NCBI GenBank assembly: GCA_964476185.1
Contig: CAYYZO010000006.1
Location: 16,529-80,528 of the forward strand
DNA: 64,000 bases
Direction: 5' to 3'
From: an uncultured Myxococcales bacterium
GTDB taxonomy: Bacteria; Desulfobacterota; Binatia; UBA1149; CAITLU01
Positions 3,047-18,474 of this stretch are shown here, in pieces (within the stretch, counting starts at the first letter, position 1; every line of letters begins with the position of its first letter). Made by a program: the position numbers and the translations under genes. Under the pieces are notes generated by a model that ran no database searches, was not told where the DNA came from, and saw only the letters and a program-made list of their open reading frames with translations.

Positions 3047-3066
3047 ACGAGCGACGGAGACGGCCG

Positions 3067-4686
3067 GTGGAACTCAACCTGGCGGACCTGTTCGAACTGG
3101 TCGTGGATACGGCGCCGGAGCGCGAGGCGCTCGTCTGCGCCGAGCGGCGCTTCACGTACGAGGAACTCGACCGCGAGGCGAACCGGCTCGCGCACTTCCT
3201 CCGCGACCGGGGCGTGAAGCCCGGCGAGCACGTCGGCATGTACCTCTACAACTGCCACGAGTACCTCGTGGCGATGCTGGCCGCGTTCAAGATCCGCGCC
3301 GTGCCGGTCAACGTGAACTACCGGTACGTCGAGGAGGAACTCGCCTACCTGCTGAACGACAGCGACCTGGTCGCGCTGTTCTACCAGCGCGAGCTCGCCG
3401 ATCGTCTCGCCGCCGTGCGCGCGAACGCGCCGAAGATCCGGGTGCTCGTCGAGGTCGACGACGCGAGCCCGCGCGCAGGCGTGCAGGAGGGCGCGGTGCG
3501 CTACGACGACGCGCTGGCCTCGTCTAGCCCCGAGCGCGGCTTCGAGCCGAGGTCCGGCAAGGATCTCTACATCATCTACACGGGCGGGACGACGGGCATG
3601 CCGAAGGGCGTCCTGTGGCGCCACGAGGACGTGCTCTACGCCGGACTCCAGGGCGGCAACCCGGGCGGAACGCCGATCGAGCGCGGCGAGCAGATCGCCG
3701 ACGTCGTCCGGAACGGACTCGCGCTGACCTTCCTGCCCGCGGCCCCGCTCATCCACGGCGCGGCGGAATGGGCGTCGTTGATCGCGTTCTTCGGCGGCGG
3801 GAAGTGCGTCCTGCAGCGCGGGAAGAGCTTCGATCCGAGGACGGTGGCGCGCCTGATCCGTGACGAGAAGGTCAATACGTTGACGCTCGTCGGTGACGCG
3901 ATGGCGCGGCCGCTGGCCGAGGCCATCGCGGAGATGGGCGACGAGGCCGACACGTCGACGGTGTTCGTCATCGGCTCGGCCGGCGCCGTGCTTTCCGAAG
4001 CCGTCAAGGAGCAGCTGCGCGCCGCGATCCCGTCGACGATGATCGTCGACAGCTTCGGCGCGACCGAGACCGGCCACCAGGGGCAGATGGCGCCGGGAAC
4101 CGGGCACGGCGCCGGGCAGAGCCCGCTCTTCTACATGAACGACACGAACTGCGTCCTCGACGAGAATCGCGTGCCCGTGGCTCCCGGAAGCGGCGTGGTC
4201 GGCAAGCTCGCGCGCCGCGGCCACATCCCGGTCGGTTACTACAACGACCCGGAGAAGACCGCCGCGACGTTCTTCGAGATCGACGGGGTGCGCTGGGTGA
4301 TGCCCGGCGACCTCGCGACGGTCGAGGCCGACGGCAGCATTCGCGTGTTCGGTCGCGGCTCGGTCTGCATCAACAGCGGCGGCGAGAAGATCTTCCCGGA
4401 GGAAGTCGAAGCCGCCCTCAAGGCGCACCCGGACGTGCTCGACGCCGTCGTCGTCGGCATCCCCGACGAGCGCTGGGGACAGCGCGTCGCGGCGCTCGTG
4501 CAGCCTCGGCCCGGAGCGGCGCCGACGGTCGAAGAGCTGGACCGGCACTGCCGCACGAAAGTCGCCGGCTACAAGGTCCCGCGCTTCGTCAGCTTCGTCG
4601 ACCAGGTCGCGCGCCAGCCGAGCGGCAAGCCGGATTACCGCTGGGCCGCGAGCTGCGCCGCCGAGCGCGCCGCGTCCGGATCCTGA
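3067..4686 (+). CDS. AMP-dependent acyl-CoA synthetase/ligase (FadD3/FadD19-like)
   Basis: AMP-binding motif YIIYTGGTTGMPKGV is present, with C-terminal GYKVPRFVSFVDQVARQPSGKPDYR. GTG 3067 (VELNLADLFELV) is chosen over the GC-noise N-terminus of the 728-aa track ORF. Confidence 0.85.
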   Translation: MELNLADLFELVVDTAPEREALVCAERRFTYEELDREANRLAHFLRDRGVKPGEHVGMYLYNCHEYLVAMLAAFKIRAVPVNVNYRYVEEELAYLLNDSDLVALFYQRELADRLAAVRANAPKIRVLVEVDDASPRAGVQEGAVRYDDALASSSPERGFEPRSGKDLYIIYTGGTTGMPKGVLWRHEDVLYAGLQGGNPGGTPIERGEQIADVVRNGLALTFLPAAPLIHGAAEWASLIAFFGGGKCVLQRGKSFDPRTVARLIRDEKVNTLTLVGDAMARPLAEAIAEMGDEADTSTVFVIGSAGAVLSEAVKEQLRAAIPSTMIVDSFGATETGHQGQMAPGTGHGAGQSPLFYMNDTNCVLDENRVPVAPGSGVVGKLARRGHIPVGYYNDPEKTAATFFEIDGVRWVMPGDLATVEADGSIRVFGRGSVCINSGGEKIFPEEVEAALKAHPDVLDAVVVGIPDERWGQRVAALVQPRPGAAPTVEELDRHCRTKVAGYKVPRFVSFVDQVARQPSGKPDYRWAASCAAERAASGS

Positions 4687-4742
4687 ACCCGCGCGACGCG
4701 TTTCCCGCGTCGCGACGACCGAGCACCGGAGGAACGATCGCC

Positions 4743-5555
4743 GTGTCCGAACAGCCAGCCCTTCTCGTCGAACGCGACGGCCACGTCGTGACCGTCACGA
4801 TGAACCGCCCCGAAGCGCGCAACGCGCTGAACCCGGAGATGATCTGTCGGCTTGCCGATGCGTGGGACCTGATCGACGACGACGACGACGTTCGCGTCGC
4901 GATCCTCACCGGCTCCCACGGCCATTTCTGCGCCGGCGCCGACCTCGACAAGCTCGTCTCGCGCTCGCTCAAGGGCCTCCCGCCCGAGAACGTGTGGGAG
5001 GAGCGCATCCGCGACAACTACCAGGTGATCTTCCGGGGCCTGCTCCGCACCCGCCGCACGGTGAAGCCGCTGATCGCGGCCATCGAGGGCTCCTGCATCG
5101 CCGGCGGCGTCGAGATCCTGCAGGCCACCGACATCCGGGTGGCCGCCGAGGGCGCGAAGCTGGGCGTTTCCGAAGTCCGCTGGGGCCTGTTCCCGCAAGG
5201 CGGGAGCACGACGCGACTGCCACGCCAGATCCCGTTCACCCGCGCGATGGAAGTGCTGCTGACCGGAGACCACTACAGCGCCGGCGAAGCGCTCGAGATG
5301 GGCCTCATCGGCCGTGTCGTGCCCGACGGGCAGGCGCTCGCGAAGGCGCGCGAGATCGCCGGCCGCATCGCCGAGAACGGCCCGGTCGCCGTGCGGAACA
5401 TCAAGCGCGCGGTGCTCGAGGTCGAGGGCATGACCGAGGACGATGCCCGGGAGGTCGAGATGCGACTCGGCATGGAGGTGTTCTCGACCGAGGACGCGAA
5501 GGAAGGGCCGCGCGCCTTCAAGGAAAAGCGCAAGCCCGAGTTCAAGGGCCGCTGA
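4743..5555 (+). CDS. enoyl-CoA hydratase/isomerase (crotonase family)
   Basis: Translation VTVTMNRPEARNALNPEM...HFCAGADLDKL...AAIEGSCIAGGVEILQATDIRVAAEGAKLG carries the crotonase oxyanion-hole motifs. GTG start at 4743. Confidence 0.85.
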   Translation: MSEQPALLVERDGHVVTVTMNRPEARNALNPEMICRLADAWDLIDDDDDVRVAILTGSHGHFCAGADLDKLVSRSLKGLPPENVWEERIRDNYQVIFRGLLRTRRTVKPLIAAIEGSCIAGGVEILQATDIRVAAEGAKLGVSEVRWGLFPQGGSTTRLPRQIPFTRAMEVLLTGDHYSAGEALEMGLIGRVVPDGQALAKAREIAGRIAENGPVAVRNIKRAVLEVEGMTEDDAREVEMRLGMEVFSTEDAKEGPRAFKEKRKPEFKGR

Positions 5556-5616: not shown

Positions 5617-6765
5617 CTATCCGGGCGAGAGCGCCCGTCGCACGAGCGGCACGAGCCGGCGGACGCCGAGCGGCGAGGGGTGCGAGTGGTCGACGTAGAG
5701 CGCCAGCGCCGCGAACTGCGTGCCGCGCCGAGCCTGTTCCCGCGTGGTGATGTCGAGGAAATCGATCACGCCGAAATCCGCCTCGCGCGCGAGCCGCAGG
5801 AGCTCGTGCTTCTCGTCGCGGTACGTCGGGAACCCGTGGTGCTCGTGGCCGCGCACGCGCGTGAGCTCGGGAACCGTGTTGTAGATGTACGGGGCGTACA
5901 GCACGGTGACGCGCCGGGCGGATTCCCTGGTGCGAAAGTCGCGCAGCCAGGCGACGATCTCGGCGGGACGGCCGTACGGCTCGTCCGCCGACCAGTCGTT
6001 CTCGCAAAGCACGTACAGGATCTGGTCGATCCGTCCCCGGTACTGCCCTGCCGCCCGCTCGAGCGCGCAGACCACGTCGGCCGCCTTCGCGCCGGCGATG
6101 CCGAGGTTCACGTATCGGCGCCCGGGATCCCGCTGCTGCAGTCGTGAGGCGAGCGTCTCGCTGTCGTCGAGCATGGCGCCGTTGGCCACGCTGTCGCCGG
6201 CGACGAGCACGACGCGTTCGGCGTCGACCACGGGGAGCGTGAGGCGTTCCCCGCGGGCGTTCGTGGTGTGACGCACCCGGCGAAAGGCGTAACGCTGCAG
6301 GAACGCCTCGAGCTCCGCGGGAAGCTCGCGCGAACCGTCGTAGAAGAACGTCATCGGGTCGAACGGGTTGAACAGGTTCGTGCGCAGGAACCCGACGATC
6401 TTCGACAGGTTCGGCTTCTGCACGCGGCATGGGCCGTCGTCCGCGTTGATCGACATCTCCTCGGTCCGCAGTCGCGAGAACGGCGAGTTGCCGAGCCCCA
6501 TCCCGGATTCCTGCATGAGCGGCAGAAGGCGACGGATCCCGGCGACGCTCTCGAGCACGCGCGTCGATGCGTCGGACGGATCGGCGGGGCCGGGACCGTC
6601 GGTCGTCCTCACGCGCTCGCGCAGCGCCGACGCGAGGCTGGCCTCGGCACGAGATCCTCTCGCGAGCGCGGCGACTCCTTCGGCGAAGATCCACGCGATC
6701 GCCGCCGAGGCGACCGTGGCGGTGCACGCGAACAGCGCCCGCCGCAGGCCGGGCGGGGGCTTCAT
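5617..6765 (-). CDS. SGNH/GDSL-family hydrolase (esterase/acyl-esterase) with N-terminal transmembrane anchor
   Basis: Start MKPPPGLRRALFACTATVASAAIAWIF contains a TM helix. GDS(x) block VVLVAGDSVANGAML and a C-terminal DxxH-like region are present. ATG at 6765 overlaps the upstream GT4 stop as ATGA. The upstream 600 aa of the 981-aa track ORF are frame noise. Confidence 0.65.
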   Translation of the reverse strand: MKPPPGLRRALFACTATVASAAIAWIFAEGVAALARGSRAEASLASALRERVRTTDGPGPADPSDASTRVLESVAGIRRLLPLMQESGMGLGNSPFSRLRTEEMSINADDGPCRVQKPNLSKIVGFLRTNLFNPFDPMTFFYDGSRELPAELEAFLQRYAFRRVRHTTNARGERLTLPVVDAERVVLVAGDSVANGAMLDDSETLASRLQQRDPGRRYVNLGIAGAKAADVVCALERAAGQYRGRIDQILYVLCENDWSADEPYGRPAEIVAWLRDFRTRESARRVTVLYAPYIYNTVPELTRVRGHEHHGFPTYRDEKHELLRLAREADFGVIDFLDITTREQARRGTQFAALALYVDHSHPSPLGVRRLVPLVRRALSPG

Positions 6766-7994
6766 CGCGCGCCTCCCGTGGCGACGGCGGTCGGCGCGTC
6801 GGTCGCCTCGAGGGACGCGGTCGCGCCGGCGGCGCGGCGCAGCACTTCGAGGTAGCGGTCGACCGCGCGCGAGACGCCGAACTCGTCGGCGCGGGCGGCC
6901 AGCAGGCCCCTGGGAGGAGGTCGTTCGAGCACCGAGAGGATCGCGACGGCCAGCGCGTCGGCATCGCCGACCGGCACGAGAGGGCCGTACCGGCCGCCGT
7001 CGAGGATTTCCCGCGGGCCGCTCGGGCAGTCGGTGCTGGCGACGGGGCAACCGCAGGCCATCGCCTCGATCAGAACGCCGGGCAGGCCTTCCCACGCCGA
7101 CGACAACGCCAGGACCGCCGCCGCCGCGAAGTACGGCGCGGGCTCGCGGACGTATCCGGCGAAGTCCACGTCGGTTTCGATGCCGAGCTCGCGGGCGAGG
7201 GCCTTCAGCGCCGCGAGGCGCTTCGGTCGGTTCGCGCGGCCGAGGATCACCAGGCGCGTTTCGCGGACGGCGCGCACCTTCGCGAACGCTCGCAACAGGG
7301 TCGGGTAGTCTTTCTGGCGAACGAGTCGTCCGGCCGCGAGCACGACGGGCGGTTCTCCCGGCGCGAACCACGGATGCGCGAGCGGCTCGCACGCGCGTCG
7401 TCGCAGCGCGTCGGCAGGGATCGGGTTGTAGATCGTGACGATTCGCTCGCGGGGATAGCCGGTCGCGCGCGCGAGGTCGTCGCCGACTCCGGCGGAGACC
7501 GCGATGACGGCCCCGGCGTCGAAGTACAGCCGGCGAGCGAGCAGCCGGGCGAGGGGACGCTTCGCGGGCGGCGAGCCGTCGCCGCGATCGCGGGTGAGGT
7601 GGTTGCTGATGCGCAGCACGACGGGCACGTCGCTGCCTGCGAGCCGGCGCGCGAGCAGGGCCGGCGCGTGCACGTGGCTGGCCGCGGAGAGCAGCACGCG
7701 CGGCGGAGTCCGGCGCAATCGCCGCGCCAGCAGCGGCATGGCGAGCAGCAGCTGCACGCGACGCGGCAGGCGCGCGAGCGGATGGGCGCCGCGCCAGCGG
7801 GTGAGCTCGACGACGCGCACGCGCGCGTCGATCTCCCGTTCGAGCGGGCCTTCGGCGGTGACCATCCAGAGCTCGATCGCCAGCCCACGGCGCGCGAGCT
7901 CGTTGACCAGCGTGACGGTGCGCCGCTGCGCGCCGCCGCCGCTCGGGCTGTGAAGGAAAACGGCAGCATCGGCGGGCGATCCGCGCGAAGTCAT
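6762..7994 (-). CDS. GT4-family retaining glycosyltransferase (GT-B fold)
   Basis: N-terminal HSPSGGGAQRRTVTLVNELARRG, donor-binding GRLVRQKDYPTLLRAF and the EX7E region SSAWEGLPGVLIEAMACGCPVASTD. ATG 7994 overlaps the upstream GT4 stop (ATGA); stop 6762-6764 overlaps the SGNH ATG. Confidence 0.8.
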   Translation of the reverse strand: MTSRGSPADAAVFLHSPSGGGAQRRTVTLVNELARRGLAIELWMVTAEGPLEREIDARVRVVELTRWRGAHPLARLPRRVQLLLAMPLLARRLRRTPPRVLLSAASHVHAPALLARRLAGSDVPVVLRISNHLTRDRGDGSPPAKRPLARLLARRLYFDAGAVIAVSAGVGDDLARATGYPRERIVTIYNPIPADALRRRACEPLAHPWFAPGEPPVVLAAGRLVRQKDYPTLLRAFAKVRAVRETRLVILGRANRPKRLAALKALARELGIETDVDFAGYVREPAPYFAAAAVLALSSAWEGLPGVLIEAMACGCPVASTDCPSGPREILDGGRYGPLVPVGDADALAVAILSVLERPPPRGLLAARADEFGVSRAVDRYLEVLRRAAGATASLEATDAPTAVATGGAR

Positions 7995-9148
7995 GCGACG
8001 GCCCTCTGCAGGACGGCGAGATAGGCCTCGGCGACGCGGGCGACGTCGAACTCCGCTGCGCGGCGGCGCAGTCCGCCACGGTCGGGTCGCTGGTCGAGGG
8101 CGTCGTCGATCGCGGCCGCCAGCGCGCGAGGATCGCCGACCGGGACGAGCCGACCGTATCGTCCGTCGTCGAGGAACTCGCGCACGCCGCCCGGGCAGTC
8201 CGTCGCGACGACGGGGCAGCCGCACGCGAGCGCCTCGGCGATCGCGTTGCTGAATCCCTCCCAGCGCGAGGCGGATACGAACAGGTCCGCGCGCGCCATG
8301 CTCGCGAAGGGGTTGTCGTCGAAGCCGGCGAAGCGGACGGCCTCGGCGACGCCGAGATCGGCGGCGAGGGAGGTGAGGCGCGGCAACTGTTCGCCGGCGC
8401 CGAGCACGACCAGGCGGGCCGGGCGTCGCCGACGCAACTCCTGCAGCGCACGGAGCAGGGTTGGATAGTCTTTCTGGGACTTGAGCTTCCCGACGGCGAG
8501 CAGGACGGGTTCGCCGTCGTTTCTCGACCCGGCGGGCGAGGGGCCGCGGGAGAGCCACGCATGGGAGGGGGTTTCCCGCGCCAGCGCCGCGATGCGCGAG
8601 ACGGCGACCGGCGACGGGATCACGGTCACGAGGTCTCGAGACATTCCTGCGAACCCGATGGCGTCGTCCGCCACGGATCGGGCCAGCGCGATGGCCGCGT
8701 CGCATTGCGGGTACAGGCGGCGTACGAGTCGCGCGGCGGCGGGCCGGCCTTTCTCGGTCGTGGAGCGCGAGATCGGCATGTTGATCGAGATCACGATCGG
8801 CACGCGGGAAGCGGCGAGCTTGCGCGCCAGCAGTCCGGCGAGGTTCGCCGGCGTCGAGCTTCCGAGCAGGACGTCCGGTGGATCACGGCGCAGGACGCCG
8901 GCGAGCGCCGGCAGGCCGACGAGCATGCGCAGGCTCTTCCTGCGCTCGACGCCGGCGACGGCGCGCCGGGCGGCCCGCAGCGGGACGACGAGCGCTCCGT
9001 CCGGGACGAGACCCGCGAACCGACCGCGCGGGCTGCCGACGAGCAGCGAGACGCCATGCCCTCGACGTACGAACTCGCCGGCCAGCGTCAGCAGCCGCCG
9101 TTGTGCGCCGCCGCCGTCGAGTCCGGTCAGGAGGATCCCGATGCGCAT
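7991..9148 (-). CDS. GT4-family glycosyltransferase (tandem paralog of 6762-7994)
   Basis: Translation MRIGILLTGLDGGGAQRRLLTLAGEFVRRGHGV...GKLKSQKDYPTLLRAL...SRWEGFSNAIAEALACGCPVVATD. It is about 40% identical to the neighbouring GT4 by eye. Confidence 0.8.
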   Translation of the reverse strand: MRIGILLTGLDGGGAQRRLLTLAGEFVRRGHGVSLLVGSPRGRFAGLVPDGALVVPLRAARRAVAGVERRKSLRMLVGLPALAGVLRRDPPDVLLGSSTPANLAGLLARKLAASRVPIVISINMPISRSTTEKGRPAAARLVRRLYPQCDAAIALARSVADDAIGFAGMSRDLVTVIPSPVAVSRIAALARETPSHAWLSRGPSPAGSRNDGEPVLLAVGKLKSQKDYPTLLRALQELRRRRPARLVVLGAGEQLPRLTSLAADLGVAEAVRFAGFDDNPFASMARADLFVSASRWEGFSNAIAEALACGCPVVATDCPGGVREFLDDGRYGRLVPVGDPRALAAAIDDALDQRPDRGGLRRRAAEFDVARVAEAYLAVLQRAVA

Positions 9149-9158
9149 GGCACCGCGC

Positions 9159-9929
9159 TCACGACGAAAGCGACGGCGCGACGGCCGCCCTGCGCGACGG
9201 CCGCGCCCACTGCGAGGCAAGGGCGTGGGCTCGGGCGAGGTCCTCGGGGACGTCGATCTCCGCGTAGCCGAGTCCGTCCACCGGCACCGTGCGGACGAGC
9301 CCGCGCAACGCCAGCCGCTCGACTGCCGAGAGGTACCAGCGTCGTTCGGCGCCGGGTTCGCGCGAGACCTCGCGCAGCGCCTCGGCGAACAGGGTCGGAC
9401 CTTCGTCGCGCCAGATCGAGACGCCGATGGCTTCGCCGGAGACGCCATCGGTGGGCAGGTGCTTGCCGATGTGGTCGAGCCACCCGAGGCCGCTCGCCAC
9501 CTTCATGTCGTCCTCGTCGTAGGCCGGCTTGGCGGTCACCGCCACGCCGGCGATCACGCCACGCGCGGCGCAGAGCCACGCGAGGAGGGCCGGGTCGACG
9601 AGCGTGTCGCCGTTCAGGAGGAGGAAGTCCTCGTTCATCTCGGACGCGGCAGCGAGGCAGCTCACGAGGTTGTCGGCGCGCTCGAAGTCGGGGTTGAACA
9701 ACGTGCGCGTCCGAAGCCGTCCGGGCGCGCGGAGCGCGAGGTGCCGCACGACGCCCGCGGCGCCGAACCCCGTGACGACGACGGCCTCGGTGACGCCGCA
9801 CGCCTCGAGGGCGTCGAGCTGCCAGTCGAGCACGCTGCGGCCCGCGATCCGCAACAGGCACTTCGGGCGGTCGAGCGTGAACGGGAGCAACCTCTTCCCG
9901 CGCCCGGCACTGAGCACGATGGCTTTCAT
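9159..9929 (-). CDS. LicC/IPCT-family CTP:phospho-alcohol cytidylyltransferase (nucleotidyltransferase)
   Basis: MKAIVLSAGRGKRLLPFTLDRPKCLL is the G-x-G-x-R nucleotide loop. ...LFNPDFERADNLVS...LNGDTLVD...GVSIWRDEG...YAEIDVPEDLARA matches LicC (FNDKYADYNNFYSL / GVSFWD / IYEIDSVQDY). ATG 9929 overlaps the upstream stop (ATGA). Confidence 0.8.
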   Translation of the reverse strand: MKAIVLSAGRGKRLLPFTLDRPKCLLRIAGRSVLDWQLDALEACGVTEAVVVTGFGAAGVVRHLALRAPGRLRTRTLFNPDFERADNLVSCLAAASEMNEDFLLLNGDTLVDPALLAWLCAARGVIAGVAVTAKPAYDEDDMKVASGLGWLDHIGKHLPTDGVSGEAIGVSIWRDEGPTLFAEALREVSREPGAERRWYLSAVERLALRGLVRTVPVDGLGYAEIDVPEDLARAHALASQWARPSRRAAVAPSLSS

Positions 9930-11149
9930 GTCTGTCCCCTCGCTTCTTCCAGTGTCCCGAGCACCGGAGCAGGTCGTGCGGCGAACGGTCGGGCATGGAC
10001 CGGCAGGTGGCGAGCATCGCACGGCAGCGCGGCCAGCCACGGTTCGAGTCGATGTCGGCGAAAGCGCAGCCAGCCGGCTTGCGACACGCGCAGGACGAGA
10101 AGCACGGAGCAGGCCGCGGTCCATGCCGCGACGGCGACGAGGCCGTGATCGGGCCGGCCGGCGATCGCGAACGCGCTCAGCAGCAGCAGGTTCGGGTTCC
10201 GGCGCGCCAGGACGAGGCGGAAGTAGGAGTCGGCCGGGCGCCATGCGAACAGGGAGAATCCCGCCAGGAGTCCTTCGAAGCACCCCTCGGCGAGCCGGCC
10301 CGCCACGTAGCCGGCGAGGATGACGGAGAACGCGGGCGCGGGATCGAAGCCTTCGATCACTCCGGCGGCGCCCCAGCCCCAGGCGAGATACCACAGCGGC
10401 GGGTGCAGCAGGTCGAGCACGTGATCGAACAGGTGCCCGAGCCGTGACGACGTGACGGTGACGCGCGCGAGCTTGCCGTCGACGGTGTCCAGGAACGTCA
10501 TCGCCCACGCCATCGCGAGGCCACCGGCGAAGTCGCCGACCGCGAAACGCCAGGTCGCGGCGATCGCCAGAACCCAACTCGCCGTCGTGACGGTGTTCGG
10601 CGACAGACCCAGCCGCGCGCAGATGCCGGTGACCAGCCGGGCCGGGGCGGGCCAGACCCATTTCGTGACGAGATCGGTCACCCCTTTGTACGCGCCGTCG
10701 AACAGGTAGCGGGCCAGCGTCCGGGCCTGGTCGCGCCGGATCGGGATGGCGGCGGCGGCCGAAGCCTTGAGCATGGGCCCGGTCCAGGCGTTGGAGAGGG
10801 ACGCCGGCGTTTCGAGATGGATCCGGCCGAGCGATTGGAGAAGTGCCCGACCTTCGATGACCTCGCGCGCCGTGGCCGCGGCCTCGCAGGACACGTGCGC
10901 GGCGACGGGAACGGAGTACGCTTGCGCGCCCGTGGCAAGCAGCACGCTCCCCGGTCGCGCGAGCATCGACCGGAGCAGGCGGTCGTCGAACAACCAGTCG
11001 CCGCGGACGAGGAGCGTGCTGGCGGCCTCGCCGTCGGCCGCGCCGACGACGGCTCCCGCCGCGCGCAACTGACGCTCGAGGCGGGTGGCGCCGTCGAGTC
11101 CCCACAGTCGCACGGTGGAATTGCCCACGATCGTGGCGTTCGTCTTCAC
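9926..11149 (-). CDS. CDP-alcohol phosphatidyltransferase with about 130-aa cytoplasmic N-terminal extension
   Basis: The family motif D-x2-DG-x2-AR...G-x3-D-x3-D is present as FLDTVDGKLARVTVTSSRLGHLFDHVLDLL, within at least 5 predicted TM helices. GTG 11149 (VKTNATIVGNST...) overlaps the gpmA stop as GTGA. An alternative internal start MLKASAAAAIP would remove the extension. Confidence 0.7.
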   Translation of the reverse strand: MKTNATIVGNSTVRLWGLDGATRLERQLRAAGAVVGAADGEAASTLLVRGDWLFDDRLLRSMLARPGSVLLATGAQAYSVPVAAHVSCEAAATAREVIEGRALLQSLGRIHLETPASLSNAWTGPMLKASAAAAIPIRRDQARTLARYLFDGAYKGVTDLVTKWVWPAPARLVTGICARLGLSPNTVTTASWVLAIAATWRFAVGDFAGGLAMAWAMTFLDTVDGKLARVTVTSSRLGHLFDHVLDLLHPPLWYLAWGWGAAGVIEGFDPAPAFSVILAGYVAGRLAEGCFEGLLAGFSLFAWRPADSYFRLVLARRNPNLLLLSAFAIAGRPDHGLVAVAAWTAACSVLLVLRVSQAGWLRFRRHRLEPWLAALPCDARHLPVHARPFAARPAPVLGTLEEARGQT

Positions 11150-11913
11150 GGGCGTCCTTCGGCTCGGGGGCGGGCCTCGGTCAACGGGGTCGTCGGCCGG
11201 AGCCTCGCATCGTCGCGGTCGAACCGGAGGATGCGGGGGCGCCCGCGGCCGAACCCGAGAAACGGCGGCTCCTCTTCGAGCAGCCAGAGCAGCACCTGCA
11301 GCAGGTTCCTGTGCGACACCACGAGCACGTGGCGGCCGTCGGCCAGTTCCGGGACGATGTGCTCGCGCCAGCACGGCAGAACGCGCATGGCGACGTCGCG
11401 CAGGCTCTCGGCGTGGGGCAGCAGGTGCCGGTCGATGCCCGCATACCGTGCATCGCGGTGGGGAGAGCGCGGATCGGATTCCGACAGCGACGGCGGACGC
11501 TCGCGGGCGCGGCGACGACAGCGCAGCACGCGACGCGGGCCGTAGCGCATCGCCGCTGCCCACGGGGTGAGTCCCTGCAGTGCACCGTAGTGGCGTTCGT
11601 TCAGTCGCCAGCAAGGGCGGATCGGTACGCCGGGTTGTCCGCGCGCGGCCAGCGCGATCTCCGCGGTGTCGATCGTGCGGCCGAGCATCGACGTGAAGCA
11701 GACGTCGACGGGCGGGACGTCCCCGCGCAGCGCCCGCCCGGCGTCGGCGGCTTCGAGCCGGCCGCGCGCGCTCAGTCCGATGTCTTCCCAGCCCGTGAAG
11801 CGAAGAGAACGGTTCCAGCGACTCTGGCCGTGTCGCAGGAGCGTAAGGACGGCCGGCGGAGCGACGGTCCGCGATTCCGACGGGATCGTGGGGAGGACAG
11901 GGAGTGCGCGCAC
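11146..11913 (-). CDS. gpmA: 2,3-bisphosphoglycerate-dependent phosphoglycerate mutase
   Basis: LTLLRHGQSRWNRSLRFTGWEDIGLSARG, WRLNERHYGALQGL, DPRSPHRDARYA and VVSHRNLLQVL are near-identical to E. coli GpmA blocks (LVRHGESQWN..., WKLNERHYGALQGL, AAHGNSLRAL). GTG start at 11913; the true start may be a few codons downstream. Confidence 0.85.
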   Translation of the reverse strand: MRALPVLPTIPSESRTVAPPAVLTLLRHGQSRWNRSLRFTGWEDIGLSARGRLEAADAGRALRGDVPPVDVCFTSMLGRTIDTAEIALAARGQPGVPIRPCWRLNERHYGALQGLTPWAAAMRYGPRRVLRCRRRARERPPSLSESDPRSPHRDARYAGIDRHLLPHAESLRDVAMRVLPCWREHIVPELADGRHVLVVSHRNLLQVLLWLLEEEPPFLGFGRGRPRILRFDRDDARLRPTTPLTEARPRAEGRP

Positions 11914-12198
11914 TACGCTCTCCGCTCAGGACCCCGCGCGTCGCGTGAACGACCCGCCGTCCTGACGTCTCCGCCTTCGCCGCGGAACCCCGTGCAACCA
12001 CCGCACCATCGCGGGAGATGCTAGGCCGCCGCCGCGCGAGCGCCCATGACGGATGTCATGGTGACGCTCCGCGTCGTGGCGCGCAAACCGGCGGCACGGC
12101 GGGATGTAGCGCACCTGTCAGCGCTGATTAGCGATCCTGTGCTCCTGCGCGGCGGCGACGGCCCGTGCGTGCCGCGCGCCCGGCCCCGGCCGGTCGTC

Positions 12199-13815
12199 TC
12201 AGGGGCATCCGCCGACTCCCGGCGTGTACGTCGTCTGGGGATCGCTCGCGCAGTACAGCGTGACGGCGGATTGCAGCTGGAGCCGGCCCGGGCCGGGCAG
12301 GCCGACGACGGTGTTGACCGAGGCCGAAGAGGTCGGCGGCGAGCAGAACGTTCCGCCGACGTACGGCACGTAGGGGTTGGGCATGCCCTGGGTCACGATC
12401 GGATCCAGGAAACAATCGCGTCGCTCCACCAGCGTGCAGGTCCCCGCGTCGATCCCCAGCGTCGCCGGCTCGCAGTCGACGTTGCTCCCGCATCCGATCA
12501 GTCCGGTGCCTTCGGCGCGCAGTACCATGTCGCAGTACAGGTCGTCGGGACCGACGGCGCACAAGCCTTCCTCGCCGCCGACGTCGTCGCACTGGCCGGT
12601 GTCGCACGCGTTCGGCAGTGTCAGCGAGCCGCTGCCGTTGCTCGCACAGGCGCCGGCGGACAGGGCCTCGCACTCGGCGTGGCTGTTGCATGCGATCGTC
12701 GGATCGCCCGTGCAGAGCCGGCACGGGCACAACAGGTCACTGCCGGGGCCGTCGGTCGCGCACGGAACGTTCGCATGGAGTTCGTCCCGGCCGGTCGCCA
12801 GGCGCGTCTCGATGCGCAGGCCGGGGCCCGTGATGTTCGCACCGGCGAGCGGGTAGCAATCGAGGCTGTAGAGCGCGCCGGTCGGCGGCACGAACGTCGC
12901 GTTGTACGCCTGCGCGTCGCAGGTCTGTCCGGCGTTGGCGCCGCCGACGCAGGTCCCTCCGCGCTGCCCGTCGGCCGGCGTCGGGTCGTCAACGCAGAGT
13001 GGGCAGGGCTGCAGCAGGGAGATGCCGAGGTAGATCTTCTCTGCGAGATGAAGGTTGATGAACCCCGAACCCTCGTCGACGTTCACGTCGCCGTCGGGCT
13101 GGGAGGCCAGCGTGTTCAGCACGCAGACGGGCGTGTTGCCGGAAGACAGCGGCAGGGGCGGCCCGAAGTGGCAGATGCACTCGGCGCCGCCGCAGAACTG
13201 CTCGTCGGGCCCGGCGACCGTGAAGCACGGCTGGCGGTTGTCGTTCTCGCACCGGCAGTTCCCGAGCGAGGGGTCGTGGCCGGTCACCTCGCATTGTCCG
13301 CACGGAGCCGGCCCTTCGCAGCCGAGGAACACGCGCGCCGGAACCGGGTCGTCGGTGTCGTAGTCGTGCGAGAGGCCGGTCCATCCGACGTCGGCCTCGG
13401 TCCCGGTGCGGCAGCGTCCGAGGGTCGTGTCGCACACGGAAAAGGGCGCGCAGTCGGAGTTCGAGGCGCAGGCGCCACGGATCTTGGAGAACAATGCGAA
13501 CTGGGCGACGGACGGGCACCCGCTGTCGTCCGGCTCGCAGGCAGGGCAGTCGAGGGTGACGTCGAGGCCGACGGCGAGGCGGAGAACGGTCAGTGCGTCG
13601 GTGCTGGTCGTCTCGCCGGAATCGTTCACGTCGCAGACGCAGAGGTCGCACGACTCCAGATCGACGGACGTACGCAGCACGAAGAGTGCATCGGAGGCGT
13701 CGGCCGGATCGTGGAGCGGCATGCCGCAGTCGCCCACGTCGGCGCCGGCGCGGCCAGCGACGGCGAACAGCAGGAGCGAGGCGAGCAAGAGCTTCATCCG
13801 CTTCTCGAGACCCAT
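12199..13815 (-). CDS. secreted cysteine-rich protein with N-terminal two-repeat dockerin-like (EF-hand-like Ca-binding) segment; function unknown
   Basis: Signal peptide MGLEKRMKLLLASLLLFAVAGRAGA with a GGAGG RBS 7 nt upstream of ATG 13815. Dockerin-like repeats HDPADASDALFVLRTSVDLES and CDVNDSGETTSTDALTVLRLAVGLD span about 13561-13713. The remainder has about 50 Cys in a CxxC/CxC-rich module ending ...TLYCASDPQTTYTPGVGGCP. It is a paralog of 26883-29291. Confidence 0.7.
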   Translation of the reverse strand: MGLEKRMKLLLASLLLFAVAGRAGADVGDCGMPLHDPADASDALFVLRTSVDLESCDLCVCDVNDSGETTSTDALTVLRLAVGLDVTLDCPACEPDDSGCPSVAQFALFSKIRGACASNSDCAPFSVCDTTLGRCRTGTEADVGWTGLSHDYDTDDPVPARVFLGCEGPAPCGQCEVTGHDPSLGNCRCENDNRQPCFTVAGPDEQFCGGAECICHFGPPLPLSSGNTPVCVLNTLASQPDGDVNVDEGSGFINLHLAEKIYLGISLLQPCPLCVDDPTPADGQRGGTCVGGANAGQTCDAQAYNATFVPPTGALYSLDCYPLAGANITGPGLRIETRLATGRDELHANVPCATDGPGSDLLCPCRLCTGDPTIACNSHAECEALSAGACASNGSGSLTLPNACDTGQCDDVGGEEGLCAVGPDDLYCDMVLRAEGTGLIGCGSNVDCEPATLGIDAGTCTLVERRDCFLDPIVTQGMPNPYVPYVGGTFCSPPTSSASVNTVVGLPGPGRLQLQSAVTLYCASDPQTTYTPGVGGCP

Positions 13816-14083
13816 TCCGGCACCTCCGTGTGTGGTTGTTTGCCAGCAACAGTGTGACGTCCTCGATCGGGTATTGGCAACGGAGAACACGGAGAAAGCC
13901 GGTACGCAGTGTCCGGCAGTAAGTGGATAGTCTCACTTGGCGTCAGGTCGTACGGGGTCGACGGTGGCGGAAGGACGCTGGCTCGCCCGATCGAGCGTCG
14001 AGCGCGCAGGACGCGTGAGGGCGTGGCCTCTCGCGCTTGCGCGGCGTGGATCTACCCGCCGCGCTTCGATGCGCAGCGTCCGG

Positions 14084-17584: not shown

Positions 17585-17710
17585 CGCTGCAACTCCCTGT
17601 GTGGTCTTGGGCGCCGGGCCGTCCTAGACTCCGGGTTCGCTCGAGCGCGCGGTCCGGCACGGAGCCGGGCCGCTGCGCGAGGATCGAGCGTGAACGAACG
17701 TTTGTTGGGT

Positions 17711-17718: not shown

Positions 17719-17835
17719 TGCCGAGGTGCGGCAAGACCTGAATTGTCCCCGGTGCGGGCGGCTCGCCGCTTCGAGAGCGGCCGAATCCCCGGTTGATCTC
17801 GCGGCTCCGCCCCGGCGGGCCGCACAGGAGACGCC

Positions 17836-18474
17836 ATGACGACCGGAACCATCGATCCCGCGGCCGGGGACGTCCGGACGACCCGGGAACGCATCCTCGA
17901 TGCCGCCGAGCAGGTGTTCGCCGAAAAGGGCCTCGGGGCGGCGCCGGTCCGGGACATCGCGGCGCGGGTCGGGCTCAATCCGGCGAGCCTCTACAACCAC
18001 TTCGCCGGCAAGGAAGAACTCTACGAGGCCGTGCTCGAACGGGGGCTGACCCCCGTGCTCGAGATGCTCTCGGACCTCATGAGCGGCCAGCGCACCCGGG
18101 ACCGCGAGGAGAAGGCGATCGACCGCGTGGTGCTCCACTTCGCGGCCAGCCCGAACCTGGCCAAGCTGATCCACTACGAGACCCTGTCCGGCGGGGAGCG
18201 GCTCGCGAAGATCGCCGGGCGCTGGTTCGAGCCGGTCTACCAGCGCGGCTTCGAGGTGCTGAACGCGAGCCGGGCCGCCGAGCTCTGGAGCGAGCAGGAG
18301 ATCCCGCTGCTGCTGCTGGCCTTCCAGAACCTGATCGTCGGCTATTTCGCGATGGTCCCGCTCGTGCAGCAGGTGTTCGGGTTCGATCCTGTCTCCCCCG
18401 AAGGAATCGAGCGCCAGACCGCCTTCCTGCACAAAGTCGCCTACCTGCTGGTCCCGCCCCGCGACGGAGAGTGA
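17836..18474 (+). CDS. TetR/AcrR-family transcriptional regulator (divergent from P450)
   Basis: RERILDAAEQVFAEKGLGAAPVRDIAARVGLNPASLYNHFAGKEELYEAV is the TetR HTH. The product is 212 aa. Confidence 0.85.
   Translation: MTTGTIDPAAGDVRTTRERILDAAEQVFAEKGLGAAPVRDIAARVGLNPASLYNHFAGKEELYEAVLERGLTPVLEMLSDLMSGQRTRDREEKAIDRVVLHFAASPNLAKLIHYETLSGGERLAKIAGRWFEPVYQRGFEVLNASRAAELWSEQEIPLLLLAFQNLIVGYFAMVPLVQQVFGFDPVSPEGIERQTAFLHKVAYLLVPPRDGE

What the first reader, a model, noticed from the sequence alone, without database searches (positions are those of the whole stretch)
5617..11913. Six-gene ATGA/GTGA-coupled operon: gpmA - CDP-alcohol phosphatidyltransferase - LicC/IPCT-like cytidylyltransferase - GT4 - GT4 - membrane SGNH hydrolase
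Every gene junction on the minus strand overlaps by exactly 4 nt or nearly abuts (gpmA/CDP-OH-PT GTGA; CDP-OH-PT/cytidylyltransferase ATGA; 10-nt gap; GT4/GT4 ATGA; GT4/SGNH ATGA). This implies tight stoichiometric co-translation. A soluble LicC/IPCT-family cytidylyltransferase next to a membrane CDP-alcohol phosphatidyltransferase is the logic of di-myo-inositol-phosphate synthesis (IPCT/DIPPS) or the CDP-choline route to phosphatidylcholine. Here the two proteins are separate and followed by two paralogous GT4 transferases and a TM-anchored SGNH esterase/acyltransferase-like protein. That predicts a glycosylated, possibly acylated, phospho-alcohol product such as a glycosyl-DIP-type compatible solute or a glycosylated phospholipid head group. 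I know of no characterised pathway with this exact composition. The tightly abutting true GpmA ortholog is unexpected and could supply a phosphoglycerate-derived precursor or simply be a syntenic neighbour.
Basis: partly seen in the sequence, partly recalled or inferred. Interest (0 to 1): 0.75.

Follow-up and report, generated by a model that had tools for sequence, protein, structure and literature searches.

The report
CDP-glycerate lipid head-group operon
This six-gene operon most likely makes activated phosphoglycerate (CDP-glycerate) and attaches it, together with sugars, to a membrane lipid; it is a new arrangement of the recently described bacterial pathway for anionic sphingolipids, with its own phosphoglycerate-mutase-like enzyme.

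Summary
Six minus-strand genes lie at 5617-11913, joined by GTGA, ATGA, a 10-nt gap, ATGA and ATGA.

The CDP-alcohol phosphotransferase and the cytidylyltransferase are not di-myo-inositol-phosphate or phosphatidylcholine enzymes. They belong to two families found together in more than 150 loci with ceramide-synthesis genes, a ceramide-kinase-type gene, a Tam41-like gene and LptF/G. That is the gene set of Caulobacter ceramide diphosphoglycerate (CPG2) synthesis, where CpgD makes CDP-glycerate and CpgA is thought to transfer phosphoglycerate.

The "gpmA" is not housekeeping GpmA. It is a divergent dPGM-family paralogue that lacks Lys100 and has Gly185 replaced by Lys/Arg. It occurs only beside cpgA/cpgD-like genes in one Binatia-type clade. 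I found no paper describing this link.

The mutase-like/CpgA-like/CpgD-like trio is the conserved core. It stands alone in four other loci. The whole six-gene block recurs in one contig at about 60% identity and partly in a Binatia MAG. Elsewhere the GT4 and SGNH genes occur separately.

Best reading: a phosphoglycerate-adding module fused to a glycosylation/esterase module for an anionic, probably sphingolipid, envelope lipid. The acceptor is unproven, because no ceramide genes lie in the 64-kb window. This is a new variant of a known kind.

The parts
11146..11913 (-). Divergent 2,3-BPG-dependent phosphoglycerate-mutase-family paralogue (255 aa). Proposed supplier of 2-phosphoglycerate; alternatively a phosphatase.
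   Evidence: PF00300 at 7e-32. TIGR01258 scores 200 bits (cut-off 81.7), but all GpmA equivalog models fall below cut-off. The best PDB hits are genuine dPGMs (best E 6e-48). All 12 cpg-linked sequences (the window and 11 orthologues) keep RHG, R62, ERHY and H184, lose K100, and have G185 replaced by K/R. The same signature appears in the best library representatives, while canonical GpmA representatives score lower. The gene is found next to cpgA/cpgD-like genes in 15 fetched loci.
9926..11149 (-). CpgA-like CDP-alcohol phosphotransferase (407 aa): an N-terminal cytosolic AF2299/IPCT-like domain lacking the NTP-transferase signature, plus a 6-TM catalytic domain. Proposed phosphoglycerate transferase using CDP-glycerate.
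   Evidence: PF01066. The motif D221xxDGxxARx8GxxxDxxxD246 is invariant in 28 homologues. The AF2 model has pLDDT 85.7. Foldseek top hits are AF2299 (E 1e-10, about 380 aligned columns), PIP synthases and IPCT-DIPPS 4mnd. The family is flanked by DAGK_cat in 68/86 loci, a Tam41-like gene in 76/86, LptF/G in 63/86 and a CpgD-like gene in 55/86 (same pattern).
9159..9929 (-). CpgD-like cytidylyltransferase (256 aa). Proposed reaction: CTP + 2-phosphoglycerate -> CDP-glycerate + PPi.
   Evidence: PF12804/PF00483. It is 46-68% identical to the nucleotidyltransferase genes in cpg/sphingolipid clusters. Family-invariant G9, R13, K23, N87, N106-G107-D108, M142 and K156 match the reported CpgD contacts R16, K26, N90, N110, M147 and K161, with the same 14-residue Met-Lys spacing (PMC13228409).
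7991..9148 (-). GT4 glycosyltransferase 'a' (385 aa)
   Evidence: Full GT4 architecture. The orthologue directly follows cpgD-like in L007 (57%) and L170 (58%). It is paired with GT4b but without the trio in L172.
6762..7994 (-). GT4 glycosyltransferase 'b' (410 aa), paralogue of GT4a
   Evidence: 41% identical to GT4a. Orthologues: L170 66%, L169 62%, L172 60%. Relatives at 46-52% lie inside sphingolipid clusters L039 (4-nt overlap with the CerS-like gene), L137 and L029.
5617..6765 (-). N-terminally membrane-anchored SGNH esterase or acyl-transferase-like protein (382 aa)
   Evidence: Weak GDSL hits. AF2 model pLDDT 90.6, with helix 5-36 followed by a beta-rich insert and the SGNH core. Foldseek hits are CgnD, Axe2, TesA and other SGNH esterases. 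Catalytic residues are invariant. The family is narrow (161 proteins, mostly Binatia). It is paired with GT4b in L169 and L170, and stands alone beside an SDF transporter in L167 and L168.
11914..12198 (.). 285-nt upstream intergenic region; presumed promoter of the operon
   Evidence: This is the only sizeable gap flanking the block. No sigma-70 consensus was found, so the assignment is an inference only.

Best explanation
The first three genes form a self-contained phosphoglycerate-activation and transfer module.

1. The dPGM-like paralogue is proposed to convert 3-phosphoglycerate to D-2-phosphoglycerate (inferred).
2. The CpgD-like enzyme condenses that with CTP to give CDP-glycerate. This reaction is shown biochemically only for Caulobacter CpgD and is inferred here from family membership and conserved contact residues.
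3. The CpgA-like membrane enzyme transfers phosphoglycerate from CDP-glycerate to a hydroxyl group of a membrane-lipid head group, releasing CMP. This rests on genetic evidence in Caulobacter only, plus the intact CDP-alcohol motif seen here.

The last three genes are co-transcribed and partly translationally coupled with the trio. They are two paralogous GT4 glycosyltransferases and a membrane-anchored SGNH esterase. They are proposed to add hexoses to the same lipid and to remove or transfer an acyl group on it. The product would be a glycosylated, phosphoglycerate-bearing anionic envelope lipid. The acceptor is most likely ceramide-based, because nearly all relatives of both core enzymes sit in sphingolipid clusters. 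The ceramide genes would then lie elsewhere in this genome.
For: Family context:
- In 86 species genomes and 80 metagenome loci, the CDP-OH-PT family is flanked by a ceramide-kinase-type DAGK_cat gene, a Tam41-like gene, LptF/G, the CpgD-like gene, a Metallophos gene, a second NTP transferase, a GNAT-type CerS, Spt, ACP, CerR and an acyl-ACP synthetase. This is the published CC_1152-CC_1168 gene set (PMC11324152).
- The Azomonas and Pseudomonas duriflava loci (L068, L072) match the published description of the A. vinelandii and P. luteola clusters, including the absence of CC_1158.

Biochemical precedent:
- CpgD makes CDP-glycerate and prefers D-2-PG (PMC12275187, PMC13228409).
- The counterparts of its glycerate and CTP contact residues are invariant in 81 family members, including the window protein.

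The mutase-like gene:
- The closest PDB relatives are genuine dPGMs (best E 6e-48).
- It is linked to cpgA/cpgD-like genes in 15 loci. In five of these, counting the window, the trio stands alone.

The whole block:
- It is conserved in L170 at 52-68% identity with GTGA/ATGA/GTGA overlaps. The first four genes are present in L007 before the contig ends.
- GT4b-like genes at 46-52% identity lie inside sphingolipid clusters. In L039 the gene overlaps the CerS-like gene by 4 nt.
- In the tree, stand-alone trios interleave with cpgB/cpgC-linked loci, so there is no separate paralogue lineage.
Against: - No Spt, CerS, CerR, ceramide kinase, CpgC-like, LptF/G, ABC exporter, ELM1-like or TagF-like gene lies in the 64-kb window. 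The acceptor is therefore unknown.
Orthology rests on synteny and residue patterns.
- CpgA activity has never been reconstituted in any organism.
- The GT4 and SGNH genes occur without the trio in L169, L172, L167 and L168. In one MAG the trio and a GT4-plus-GDSL pair lie on different contigs (L004 and L171). The two halves may therefore be functionally independent.
- The mutase-like protein lacks Lys100, has Gly185 replaced by Lys/Arg and has a different C-terminal tail. It may not be a mutase.
Confidence: 0.6

Rival explanations
1. The operon holds two independent modules that merely share a transcript. The trio serves ordinary CPG2-type sphingolipid synthesis. GT4a-GT4b-SGNH decorates an unrelated glycoconjugate, such as a glycolipid, an exopolysaccharide or LPS element, or a glycoprotein.
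For: - GT4b-SGNH occurs alone in L169, and GT4a-GT4b occurs alone in L172.
- SGNH stands alone beside an SDF transporter in L167 and L168.
- In MAG GCA_016218925.1 the trio (L004) and a GT4-plus-GDSL pair (L171) lie on different contigs.
- The best NCBIfam hits of the GT4s are PglJ-, XrtA-system- and EpsE-type transferases, all far below cut-off.
Against: - The fusion is conserved in gene order at about 60% identity in L170, and for the first four genes in L007.
- No priming phosphoglycosyltransferase, flippase or polymerase lies in or beside the operon.
- GT4b relatives sit inside sphingolipid clusters.
Confidence: 0.22
2. The overall pathway is the same, but the His_Phos protein is a phosphatase rather than a mutase. 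The CpgA-like enzyme would resemble PgsA, PIP synthase or DIPP synthase and yield a phosphorylated intermediate. The His_Phos protein would then dephosphorylate it. In other lineages the Metallophos protein (CC_1158-like) would do this job.
For: - The closest structural relatives of the transferase (AF2299, PIP synthases, DIPPS) belong to the class that uses phosphorylated acceptors (own knowledge of those pathways).
- His_Phos and Metallophos genes are never found in the same locus. Fifteen loci have His_Phos and none of these has Metallophos. Metallophos is present in 54 of the 86 genome loci.
- The dPGM substrate-binding Lys100 is lost, Gly185 is replaced by Lys/Arg and the C-terminal tail differs.
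- Olea-Ozuna et al. propose a final phosphoesterase step by CC_1158 (PMC11324152).
Against: - The protein is far closer to genuine mutases than to the known phosphatase branches in NCBIfam (TIGR01258 at 200 bits; cobC, GpmB and PspA models at 63 bits or less).
- R10, H11, R62, E89-R90-H91-Y92 and H184 are retained. N186 is retained in the window and most orthologues (His in three). The window also keeps R116 and R117.
- CC_1158 is dispensable for CPG2 in Caulobacter.
- The exclusivity could simply reflect one clade's history.
Confidence: 0.25
3. The enzyme pair makes a CDP-inositol-derived or CDP-choline-derived product, either a DIP-type compatible solute or phosphatidylcholine, which is then glycosylated.
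For: - The fold resembles IPCT-DIPPS and AF2299.
- There are weak NCBIfam hits to AIPS, PIPS and IPCT/DIPPS models.
- The top structural neighbour of Caulobacter CpgD is T. maritima IMPCT (PMC12275187).
Against: - All of those models score far below cut-off (24-54 bits against 170-580).
- No inositol-1-phosphate synthase or choline kinase appears in any neighbourhood.
- The family sits in sphingolipid clusters in mesophilic Gram-negative lineages, not in hyperthermophiles.
- A phosphoglycerate-mutase-like gene, not an inositol gene, is coupled to the pair.
- The glycerate-contact residues of CpgD are conserved.
Confidence: 0.04
4. The acceptor is a glycerolipid or glycoglycerolipid rather than ceramide. 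This would be a PIM-like logic: a head group installed by a CDP-alcohol phosphotransferase, then GT4 glycosylation and acyl editing, by analogy with mycobacterial PgsA1-PatA-PimA.
For: - No ceramide genes lie within 64 kb.
- Stand-alone trios exist in L004 and L099. L099 is from a MAG labelled Limnocylindrales, a Chloroflexota lineage.
- GT4 enzymes commonly glycosylate diacylglycerol or phosphatidylinositol (own knowledge).
Against: - The stand-alone trios nest among cpgB/cpgC-linked relatives in the tree.
- The L099 trio still lies beside an MsbA-like exporter and an ELM1-like gene. Both recur in sphingolipid clusters.
- Binatia MAGs L012 and L080 carry full ceramide clusters.
Confidence: 0.1

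Closest known systems
Caulobacter crescentus CPG2 (ceramide diphosphoglycerate) pathway: CpgD (CCNA_01210/CC_1152) and CpgA (CCNA_01217/CC_1159)
   Same: - It uses the same two protein families: a COG1213-type cytidylyltransferase and a PgsA/CDP-alcohol phosphotransferase.
- The proposed chemistry is the same: CTP + 2-PG -> CDP-glycerate, then phosphoglycerate transfer to a lipid head group.
- Relatives of both window genes sit in clusters with the full published gene set (PMC12275187, PMC11324152).
   Different: - Here the pair is detached from cpgB, cpgC, spt, cerS and lptFG.
- It is translationally coupled to a dedicated dPGM-like paralogue. The papers read here (PMC11324152, PMC12275187, PMC13228409) mention no mutase gene in the described Caulobacter cluster.
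- It is fused to two GT4s and an SGNH esterase.
- Direct sequence comparison with the Caulobacter proteins was not possible.
Archaeoglobus AF2299 and IPCT/DIPPS (di-myo-inositol-phosphate synthesis)
   Same: The architecture matches: a cytosolic nucleotidyltransferase-like N-domain fused to a 6-TM CDP-alcohol phosphotransferase (Foldseek E 1e-10 to 2e-7 over about 380-440 columns). A soluble CDP-alcohol serves as donor.
   Different: - The N-domain lacks the GxGxR signature, and the active cytidylyltransferase is a separate gene.
- The equivalog HMM is far below cut-off.
- There are no inositol genes.
- The context is a mesophilic Gram-negative sphingolipid one.
Housekeeping 2,3-BPG-dependent phosphoglycerate mutase GpmA
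   Same: Roughly 45% identical judged from the printed alignments, with E about 1e-45 to solved dPGMs. The phosphohistidine motif RHG, R62, E89-R-H-Y and H184 are conserved.
   Different: - It scores below all GpmA equivalog cut-offs.
- Lys100 is lost, Gly185 is replaced by Lys/Arg, and there is no Lys-rich C-terminal tail.
- It belongs to a small sub-clade that is genomically tied to cpgA/cpgD-like genes.
Mycobacterial PgsA1-PatA-PimA operon (phosphatidylinositol mannosides); own knowledge, not tested here
   Same: One operon combines a CDP-alcohol phosphotransferase with GT4 glycosyltransferase(s) and an acyl-editing enzyme, all acting on one lipid head group.
   Different: - The donor and acceptor chemistry differ (CDP-DAG plus inositol-phosphate).
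- The acyl enzyme is a LPLAT-type transferase, not an SGNH protein.
- There is no cytidylyltransferase or mutase.
TagD/TagF CDP-glycerol teichoic-acid system
   Same: A CDP-activated three-carbon polyol or acid phosphate is transferred to a membrane-anchored acceptor. TagF-like genes occur beside GT4b-like genes in 12 of the related loci.
   Different: The cytidylyltransferase and the transferase have unrelated folds. No TagF-like gene lies in the window.

Membership tests
CpgA-type phosphoglycerate transferase (CC_1159 family) | CDP-alcohol phosphotransferase motif Dx2DGx2ARx8Gx3Dx3D | tested here: met
   D221...D246 is intact and invariant in 28 homologues. PF01066 hit.
CpgA-type phosphoglycerate transferase (CC_1159 family) | Family members encoded beside the ceramide kinase cpgB and the Tam41-like cpgC in sphingolipid clusters | tested here: met
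   For the family: DAGK_cat in 68/86 loci and a Tam41-like gene in 76/86, with the same pattern in metagenome loci. The gene order Metallophos-CDP-OH-PT-DAGK-Tam41 in Geobacter equals CC_1158-CC_1161.
CpgA-type phosphoglycerate transferase (CC_1159 family) | The window locus itself lies in a sphingolipid cluster | tested here: not met
   tblastn finds no Spt, CerS, CerR, DAGK, Tam41-like or LptF/G gene in the 64-kb window.
CpgA-type phosphoglycerate transferase (CC_1159 family) | Direct sequence orthology to Caulobacter CC_1159 | not testable with these tools
   The Caulobacter sequence could not be obtained. The indirect link is through L068 (Azomonas) and L072 (P. duriflava), which match the published A. 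vinelandii and P. luteola clusters.
CpgA-type phosphoglycerate transferase (CC_1159 family) | Transfers phosphoglycerate from CDP-glycerate to CPG | not testable with these tools
   This has not been shown biochemically in any organism. In Caulobacter the evidence is genetic only (PMC9393093).
CpgD CTP:phosphoglycerate cytidylyltransferase (CC_1152 family) | COG1213-type nucleotidyltransferase fold with the GxGxR...K...NGD catalytic residues | tested here: met
   PF12804/PF00483. G9, G11, R13, K23 and N106-G107-D108 are invariant.
CpgD CTP:phosphoglycerate cytidylyltransferase (CC_1152 family) | Glycerate-contact residues Asn90, Asn110, Met147 and Lys161 of the CpgD crystal structures | tested here: inconclusive
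   N87, N106, M142 and K156 are invariant in 81 family members, with matching offsets and the same 14-residue Met-Lys spacing (PMC13228409). The mapping was made without the Caulobacter sequence.
CpgD CTP:phosphoglycerate cytidylyltransferase (CC_1152 family) | Co-location with cpgA-type genes | tested here: met
   55/86 genome loci. In the window, L004, L007, L099 and L170 the gene is immediately downstream of the cpgA-like gene.
Housekeeping GpmA (2,3-BPG-dependent phosphoglycerate mutase) | Score above the NCBIfam equivalog cut-off | tested here: not met
   The best equivalog scores 197 bits against a cut-off of 305. Only the subfamily model TIGR01258 is passed.
Housekeeping GpmA (2,3-BPG-dependent phosphoglycerate mutase) | Substrate-binding Lys100, the His184-Gly185 motif and the Lys-rich C-terminal tail | tested here: not met
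   K100 is replaced by P/L/T/A, and G185 by K/R, in all 12 cpg-linked sequences, and the tail differs. Canonical representatives keep LNK/LDK, AAHGNSLR and ANQGK.
Housekeeping GpmA (2,3-BPG-dependent phosphoglycerate mutase) | Catalytic core R10-H11, R62, E89, H184 | tested here: met
   Conserved in the alignments.
IPCT/DIPPS (di-myo-inositol-phosphate synthesis) | Equivalog-level similarity to the bifunctional IPCT/DIPPS | tested here: not met
   NF041135 scores 53.9 bits (cytidylyltransferase) and 23.7 bits (transferase) against a cut-off of 580.
IPCT/DIPPS (di-myo-inositol-phosphate synthesis) | Inositol-1-phosphate synthase in the neighbourhood | tested here: not met
   No Inos-1-P synthase Pfam family appears in any of the annotated loci. 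It was not searched for specifically in the rest of the window.
LicC / CDP-choline route | Full-length similarity to LicC and an associated choline kinase | tested here: not met
   LicC (1jyk) matches residues 1-98 only, at E 1.5e-6. No kinase gene lies in the operon.
SGNH hydrolase | Blocks I, II, III and V, giving the Ser-Asp-His triad and the Gly/Asn oxyanion hole | tested here: met
   GDS192, G222, N256 and D359xxH362 are invariant in 31 sequences. The fold matches Axe2, TesA and CgnD.

The most novel reading that the evidence does not exclude
The dPGM-like paralogue may be the 'dedicated yet unidentified enzyme' that Dhakephalkar et al. (2025) postulated for supplying phosphoglycerate to CPG2 synthesis. 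Alternatively, it may be a lineage-specific replacement for the CC_1158 phosphoesterase. Together with two GT4s and an SGNH esterase, the operon would specify a so far undescribed class of glycosylated and acyl-edited phosphoglycerate sphingolipids in Binatia-type bacteria.
Probability: 0.3. Interest if true: 0.7.

Novelty: new variant of a known kind. Interest (0 to 1): 0.55.

Why it matters
CPG2-type anionic sphingolipids can partly substitute for LPS in Caulobacter and are the target of polymyxin there. The pathway is only half solved. CpgA has no assay. The phosphoglycerate isomer used in vivo is unknown. The authors of the CpgD work explicitly raise the possibility of a dedicated phosphoglycerate-supplying enzyme.

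A mutase-like gene translationally coupled to cpgA-like and cpgD-like genes in a whole clade gives a concrete candidate. It also gives a minimal three-gene module that could be reconstituted.

The data also show that the cpgA-type family is far more widespread than the published Alpha-, Beta- and Gammaproteobacteria. It occurs in at least 592 species genomes, including Nitrospirota, Thermodesulfobacteriota, Binatia and Myxococcota. In some lineages it is joined to glycosyltransferases, which hints at unexplored head-group diversity in outer-membrane sphingolipids.

Tried and rejected
- **Window's own contig.** Looking it up through P0001 gave no record, so nothing beyond the 64 kb could be read.
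- **CpgD in the PDB.** A sequence search found only generic nucleotidyltransferases. The 2026 CpgD structures are not in the copy searched.
- **Promoter and terminator scan.** Uninformative in this 72% GC region.
- **A naive GC3 gene caller on stop-to-stop ORFs.** It missed the operon genes because they are embedded in long spurious ORFs. I used homologue-guided starts instead.
- **DIP synthesis.** Considered and rejected: equivalog scores are far below cut-off and there are no inositol genes.
- **CDP-choline / LicC.** Considered and rejected: only the N-terminal nucleotide-binding part matches.
- **A classical EPS or O-antigen cluster.** Considered and rejected: there is no priming transferase, flippase or polymerase.
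- **Anti-phage 'conflict-system' GT4.** Considered and rejected: PF20706 hits are much weaker than the generic GT4 hits.
- **Stand-alone trios as a separate paralogue lineage.** Tested and not supported by the tree.
- **Literature search.** No paper in the searchable library ties a phosphoglycerate mutase paralogue to CDP-glycerate or to bacterial sphingolipids.

Full report
**1. The observation**

The window has about 70% GC.
- His_Phos/dPGM-like, 11146-11913.
- CDP-alcohol phosphotransferase, 9926-11149. Its GTG start overlaps the upstream stop as GTGA.
- Nucleotidyltransferase, 9159-9929 (ATGA overlap), followed by a 10-nt gap.
- GT4a, 7991-9148.
- GT4b, 6762-7994 (ATGA overlap).
- SGNH-like protein, 5617-6765 (ATGA overlap).

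The chosen starts agree with homologue N-termini. The block is bounded upstream by a 285-nt gap. Beyond that gap lies a Cys-rich 563-aa protein with no Pfam family. Downstream, 61 nt away, is a convergent enoyl-CoA hydratase gene. The other neighbours are beta-oxidation-type genes, a Trans_reg_C/TPR regulator, a P450 and a TetR. Pfam and NCBIfam confirm the domain assignments. The two GT4s are 41% identical.

**2. What the two central enzymes are**

*Family size.* The 407-aa transferase belongs to a large family of about 400-410-aa proteins. There were more than 5,900 hits among the scored candidates, and at least 592 species genomes encode a relative.

*Neighbourhoods.* In Geobacter benzoatilyticus the homologue lies in the order Metallophos, CDP-OH-PT, DAGK_cat, Tam41-like. 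It sits next to lptF/lptG, two nucleotidyltransferases, a 393-aa protein, an AMP-binding enzyme, an epimerase-type reductase, an ACP and a class-I/II aminotransferase. A 7-Mb genome and a 92-kb contig show the same set plus a lipid desaturase and a GNAT-like protein.

*Systematic count.* I ran tblastn over 86 genome loci and 80 metagenome loci. In the genome set, the Tam41-like gene is present in 76/86 loci, DAGK_cat in 68, LptF/G in 63/62, the homologue of the window cytidylyltransferase in 55, Metallophos in 54, the second NTP transferase in 50 and the CerS-like gene in 46. The metagenome loci show the same pattern.

*Match to the literature.* This is the gene content of the Caulobacter CC_1152-CC_1168 region. 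There CC_1160/CpgB is a ceramide kinase, and CC_1161/CpgC has a CDP-DAG-synthase-type domain. CC_1159/CpgA carries the PgsA/CDP-alcohol domain and is needed to convert CPG to CPG2. CC_1158 is a phosphoesterase, and CC_1153 and CC_1152 are nucleotidyltransferases (PMC9393093; PMC11324152). CC_1152/CpgD has been shown in vitro to be a CTP:phosphoglycerate cytidylyltransferase that makes CDP-glycerate and prefers D-2-phosphoglycerate. Crystal structures define its contact residues (PMC12275187; PMC13228409).

*Link to published orthologues.* The published survey reports contiguous clusters lacking CC_1158 in Azotobacter vinelandii and Pseudomonas luteola. My loci from Azomonas macrocytogenes (L068) and P. 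duriflava (L072) look exactly like that. This ties the family searched here to the published orthologues.

**3. Features of the window proteins**

*The transferase.* It has the complete D221xxDGxxARx8GxxxDxxxD246 motif, invariant in 28 homologues. Its AlphaFold model has pLDDT 85.7 and pTM 0.83. The model matches AF2299 (E about 1e-10), AfCTD-fused PIP synthases and IPCT-DIPPS (4mnd) over about 380-440 columns, that is, over both the cytosolic N-domain and the membrane domain. Isolated IPCT gives weak matches to the N-domain. The N-domain has no Pfam hit and no GxGxR signature. It is therefore an AF2299-type, probably non-catalytic, nucleotidyltransferase-like domain.

*The cytidylyltransferase.* It is 46-68% identical to the cluster-linked homologues. 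In an alignment of 81 family members the following are invariant: G9, G11, R13, K23, D86-N87-L88, N106-G107-D108, M142-K143 and K156. These line up with CpgD Gly12, Arg16, Lys26, Asn90, Asn110-Gly111-Asp112, Met147 and Lys161, including the identical 14-residue Met-Lys spacing. I made this mapping without the Caulobacter sequence, which I could not obtain, so it is suggestive and not proof.

**4. The 'gpmA'**

The protein is clearly of the 2,3-BPG-dependent mutase family. TIGR01258 scores 200 bits against a cut-off of 81.7, and the best PDB hits are genuine dPGMs (best E 6e-48, several near 1e-45). However, it falls below every GpmA equivalog cut-off, for example 197 against 305.

Homologues of it lie next to cpgA/cpgD-like genes in 15 fetched loci: L004-L009, L012, L087, L088, L096 (the same contig as L005), L099, L102, L103, L107 and L170. 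All of these fall in one clade of the transferase tree, made up of Binatia and 'Deltaproteobacteria' MAGs.

I aligned 12 non-identical cpg-linked sequences (the window and 11 orthologues). All 12 keep RHG, R62, E89-R-H-Y and H184. All replace Lys100 (E. coli numbering) with P, L, T or A, and Gly185 with Lys or Arg. Their C-terminal tails differ from the Lys-rich GpmA tail.

In an exhaustive search of 1.8 billion representatives, the best single-domain hits share this signature. Canonical representatives (LNK/LDK, AAHGNSLR...ANQGK) score lower. So this is a specialised paralogue, not the housekeeping enzyme.

The simplest role is supply of 2-PG, the preferred CpgD substrate. That fits the CpgD authors' remark that a dedicated phosphoglycerate-producing enzyme may exist.

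A phosphatase role cannot be excluded. His_Phos and the Metallophos gene (CC_1158-like) never occur in the same locus. In addition, the nearest structural relatives of the transferase make phosphorylated intermediates that need a phosphatase.

**5. Conservation of the block**

The trio His_Phos, CpgA-like, CpgD-like is the conserved unit. It stands alone in four other loci:
- L004, a Deltaproteobacteria MAG, at 52/56/58% identity.
- L007, a Binatia MAG.
- L099, a 947-kb contig.
- L170.

In the sister group the same three genes are embedded in full sphingolipid clusters. An example is L005: Spt, reductase, His_Phos, LptF, LptG, CpgA, DAGK, CpgC-like, CpgD, desaturase, NTP transferase, CerS-like.

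The complete six-gene order recurs in L170, a 5.8-kb contig with both end genes cut. Identities there are 52, 58, 68, 58, 66 and 64%. Its junctions are GTGA, a 39-nt gap, a 15-nt gap, ATGA and GTGA. L007 carries the first four genes before the contig ends.

Elsewhere the second half is separable:
- GT4b-SGNH alone in L169.
- GT4a-GT4b alone in L172.
- A GT4a-like gene plus a different weak GDSL protein in L171, which is the same MAG as L004 but another contig.
- SGNH alone beside an SDF transporter in L167 and L168.

On the other hand, GT4b-like genes at 46-52% identity lie inside sphingolipid clusters. In L039 the gene overlaps the CerS-like gene by 4 nt. In L137 and L029 it lies beside a TagF-like gene.

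In the neighbour-joining tree, stand-alone trios interleave with cpgB/cpgC-linked loci (L087, L089, L090, L102). There is therefore no sign of a separate paralogue lineage with a new function.

**6. The SGNH protein**

It belongs to a narrow family of 161 proteins, mostly from Binatia. Invariant GDS192, G222, N256 and D359xxH362 indicate an active enzyme. The model (pLDDT 90.6) has an N-terminal helix at residues 5-36, a beta-rich insert and an SGNH core. The core resembles CgnD, acetyl-xylan esterase Axe2 and TesA/lysophospholipase L1.

The basic N-terminus before the helix suggests that the catalytic domain lies outside the cytoplasm. This is an inference from the positive-inside rule. Its substrate cannot be deduced.

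**7. Synthesis**

*Shown here:* the gene structure, the family memberships by sequence, structure and synteny, the clade-specific link of a divergent dPGM paralogue to cpgA/cpgD-like genes, and the partial conservation of the six-gene fusion.

*Taken from the literature:* the CpgD reaction and the genetic role of CpgA.

*Inferred:*
- The window enzymes carry out these reactions.
- The paralogue supplies 2-PG.
- The GT4s and the SGNH enzyme act on the same lipid.
- The lipid is ceramide-based, even though no ceramide genes lie within 64 kb.

The cytidylyltransferase/transferase logic and the guess about a phosphoglycerate-derived precursor are.

**8. Novelty and score**

The pathway type is known from work published between 2022 and 2026, so this is not categorically new. 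Three things appear new:
- The mutase-like component. No paper in the searchable library mentions one.
- The detached three-gene module.
- Its fusion with a GT4-GT4-SGNH module.

The wide phylogenetic spread of the cpgA-type family, beyond what the Caulobacter papers report, is also notable.

I rate this as a new variant of a known kind, with interest 0.55. It offers a directly testable candidate for an open step in a young field, but the function of half the operon and the acceptor remain conjectural.

Noticed in passing
Related loci L004-L009, L012, L087, L088, L096, L099, L102, L103, L107, L170 compared with the rest of L001-L166: The His_Phos (dPGM-like) gene and the Metallophos phosphoesterase gene (CC_1158-like, usually divergent from cpgA) are mutually exclusive. 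None of the 15 His_Phos loci has Metallophos. Metallophos is present in 54 of the 86 genome loci and many metagenome loci. This could be a non-orthologous replacement or simply clade history.
   Followed up: partly
L137:5569-6708(-), L029:12046-13212(+), and homologues in 12 loci (L022, L023, L026, L027, L029, L039, L046, L070, L115, L137, L160, L164): A TagF-like protein (Pfam Glyphos_transf, weak to borderline) recurs in cpg/sphingolipid clusters. In L137 and L029 it lies next to a GT4b-like glycosyltransferase. This is interesting because the CpgD authors drew an analogy to TagD/TagF.
   Followed up: partly
L099:4893-9240, with homologues in 24 loci (ABC exporter) and 11 loci (ELM1-like): An MsbA-like ABC exporter and a 'Mito_fiss_Elm1' (PF06258) protein recur next to cpgA-type genes, including beside the stand-alone trio of L099. 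Neither is present in the window.
   Followed up: partly
Genome-contig scan, L007-L086: The cpgA-type family, usually with cpgB-like and cpgC-like neighbours, is present in at least 592 species genomes. These include Nitrospirota, Thermodesulfobacteriota, Binatia, Myxococcota, Methylomirabilota/Rokubacteria and Beta- and Gammaproteobacteria. The Caulobacter papers report CpgC homologues only in Caulobacterales and Sphingomonadales, and clusters only in a few proteobacteria.
   Followed up: partly
L099 (Ga0196963_10000002, 947 kb; protein P0067): A source labels this contig's protein as Candidatus Limnocylindrales (Chloroflexota). A phosphoglycerate-transfer trio in a lineage usually considered to lack an outer membrane would be odd. 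Mis-binning or mis-labelling was not excluded.
   Followed up: no
window 12199-13890 (-): Directly upstream of the operon lies a 563-aa, very Cys-rich protein with an N-terminal hydrophobic segment and no Pfam family. It looks like a secreted or surface protein of unknown function.
   Followed up: no
window 14084-15670 (-), 16271-17623 (-), 17797-18474 (+): An OmpR-type winged-helix plus TPR regulator, a cytochrome P450 and a TetR regulator lie upstream. Thiolase-like, acyl-CoA synthetase and enoyl-CoA hydratase genes (1220-5555, + strand) lie downstream. None of these recurs next to the operon's relatives.
   Followed up: partly
L171:6798-9148 (MAG GCA_016218925.1, contig 79) and L004 (same MAG, contig 68): The same MAG carries the stand-alone trio on one contig. 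On another contig it has a GT4a-like gene overlapping a 373-aa weak GDSL/SGNH protein that is not detectably similar to the window SGNH. The GT4-plus-esterase pairing therefore recurs with a different esterase.
   Followed up: partly
Protein search for GT4a, hit P0277: A GT4a relative (45% identity) is annotated in Nitrosomonas, a genus reported to carry CPG2 cluster orthologues.
   Followed up: no
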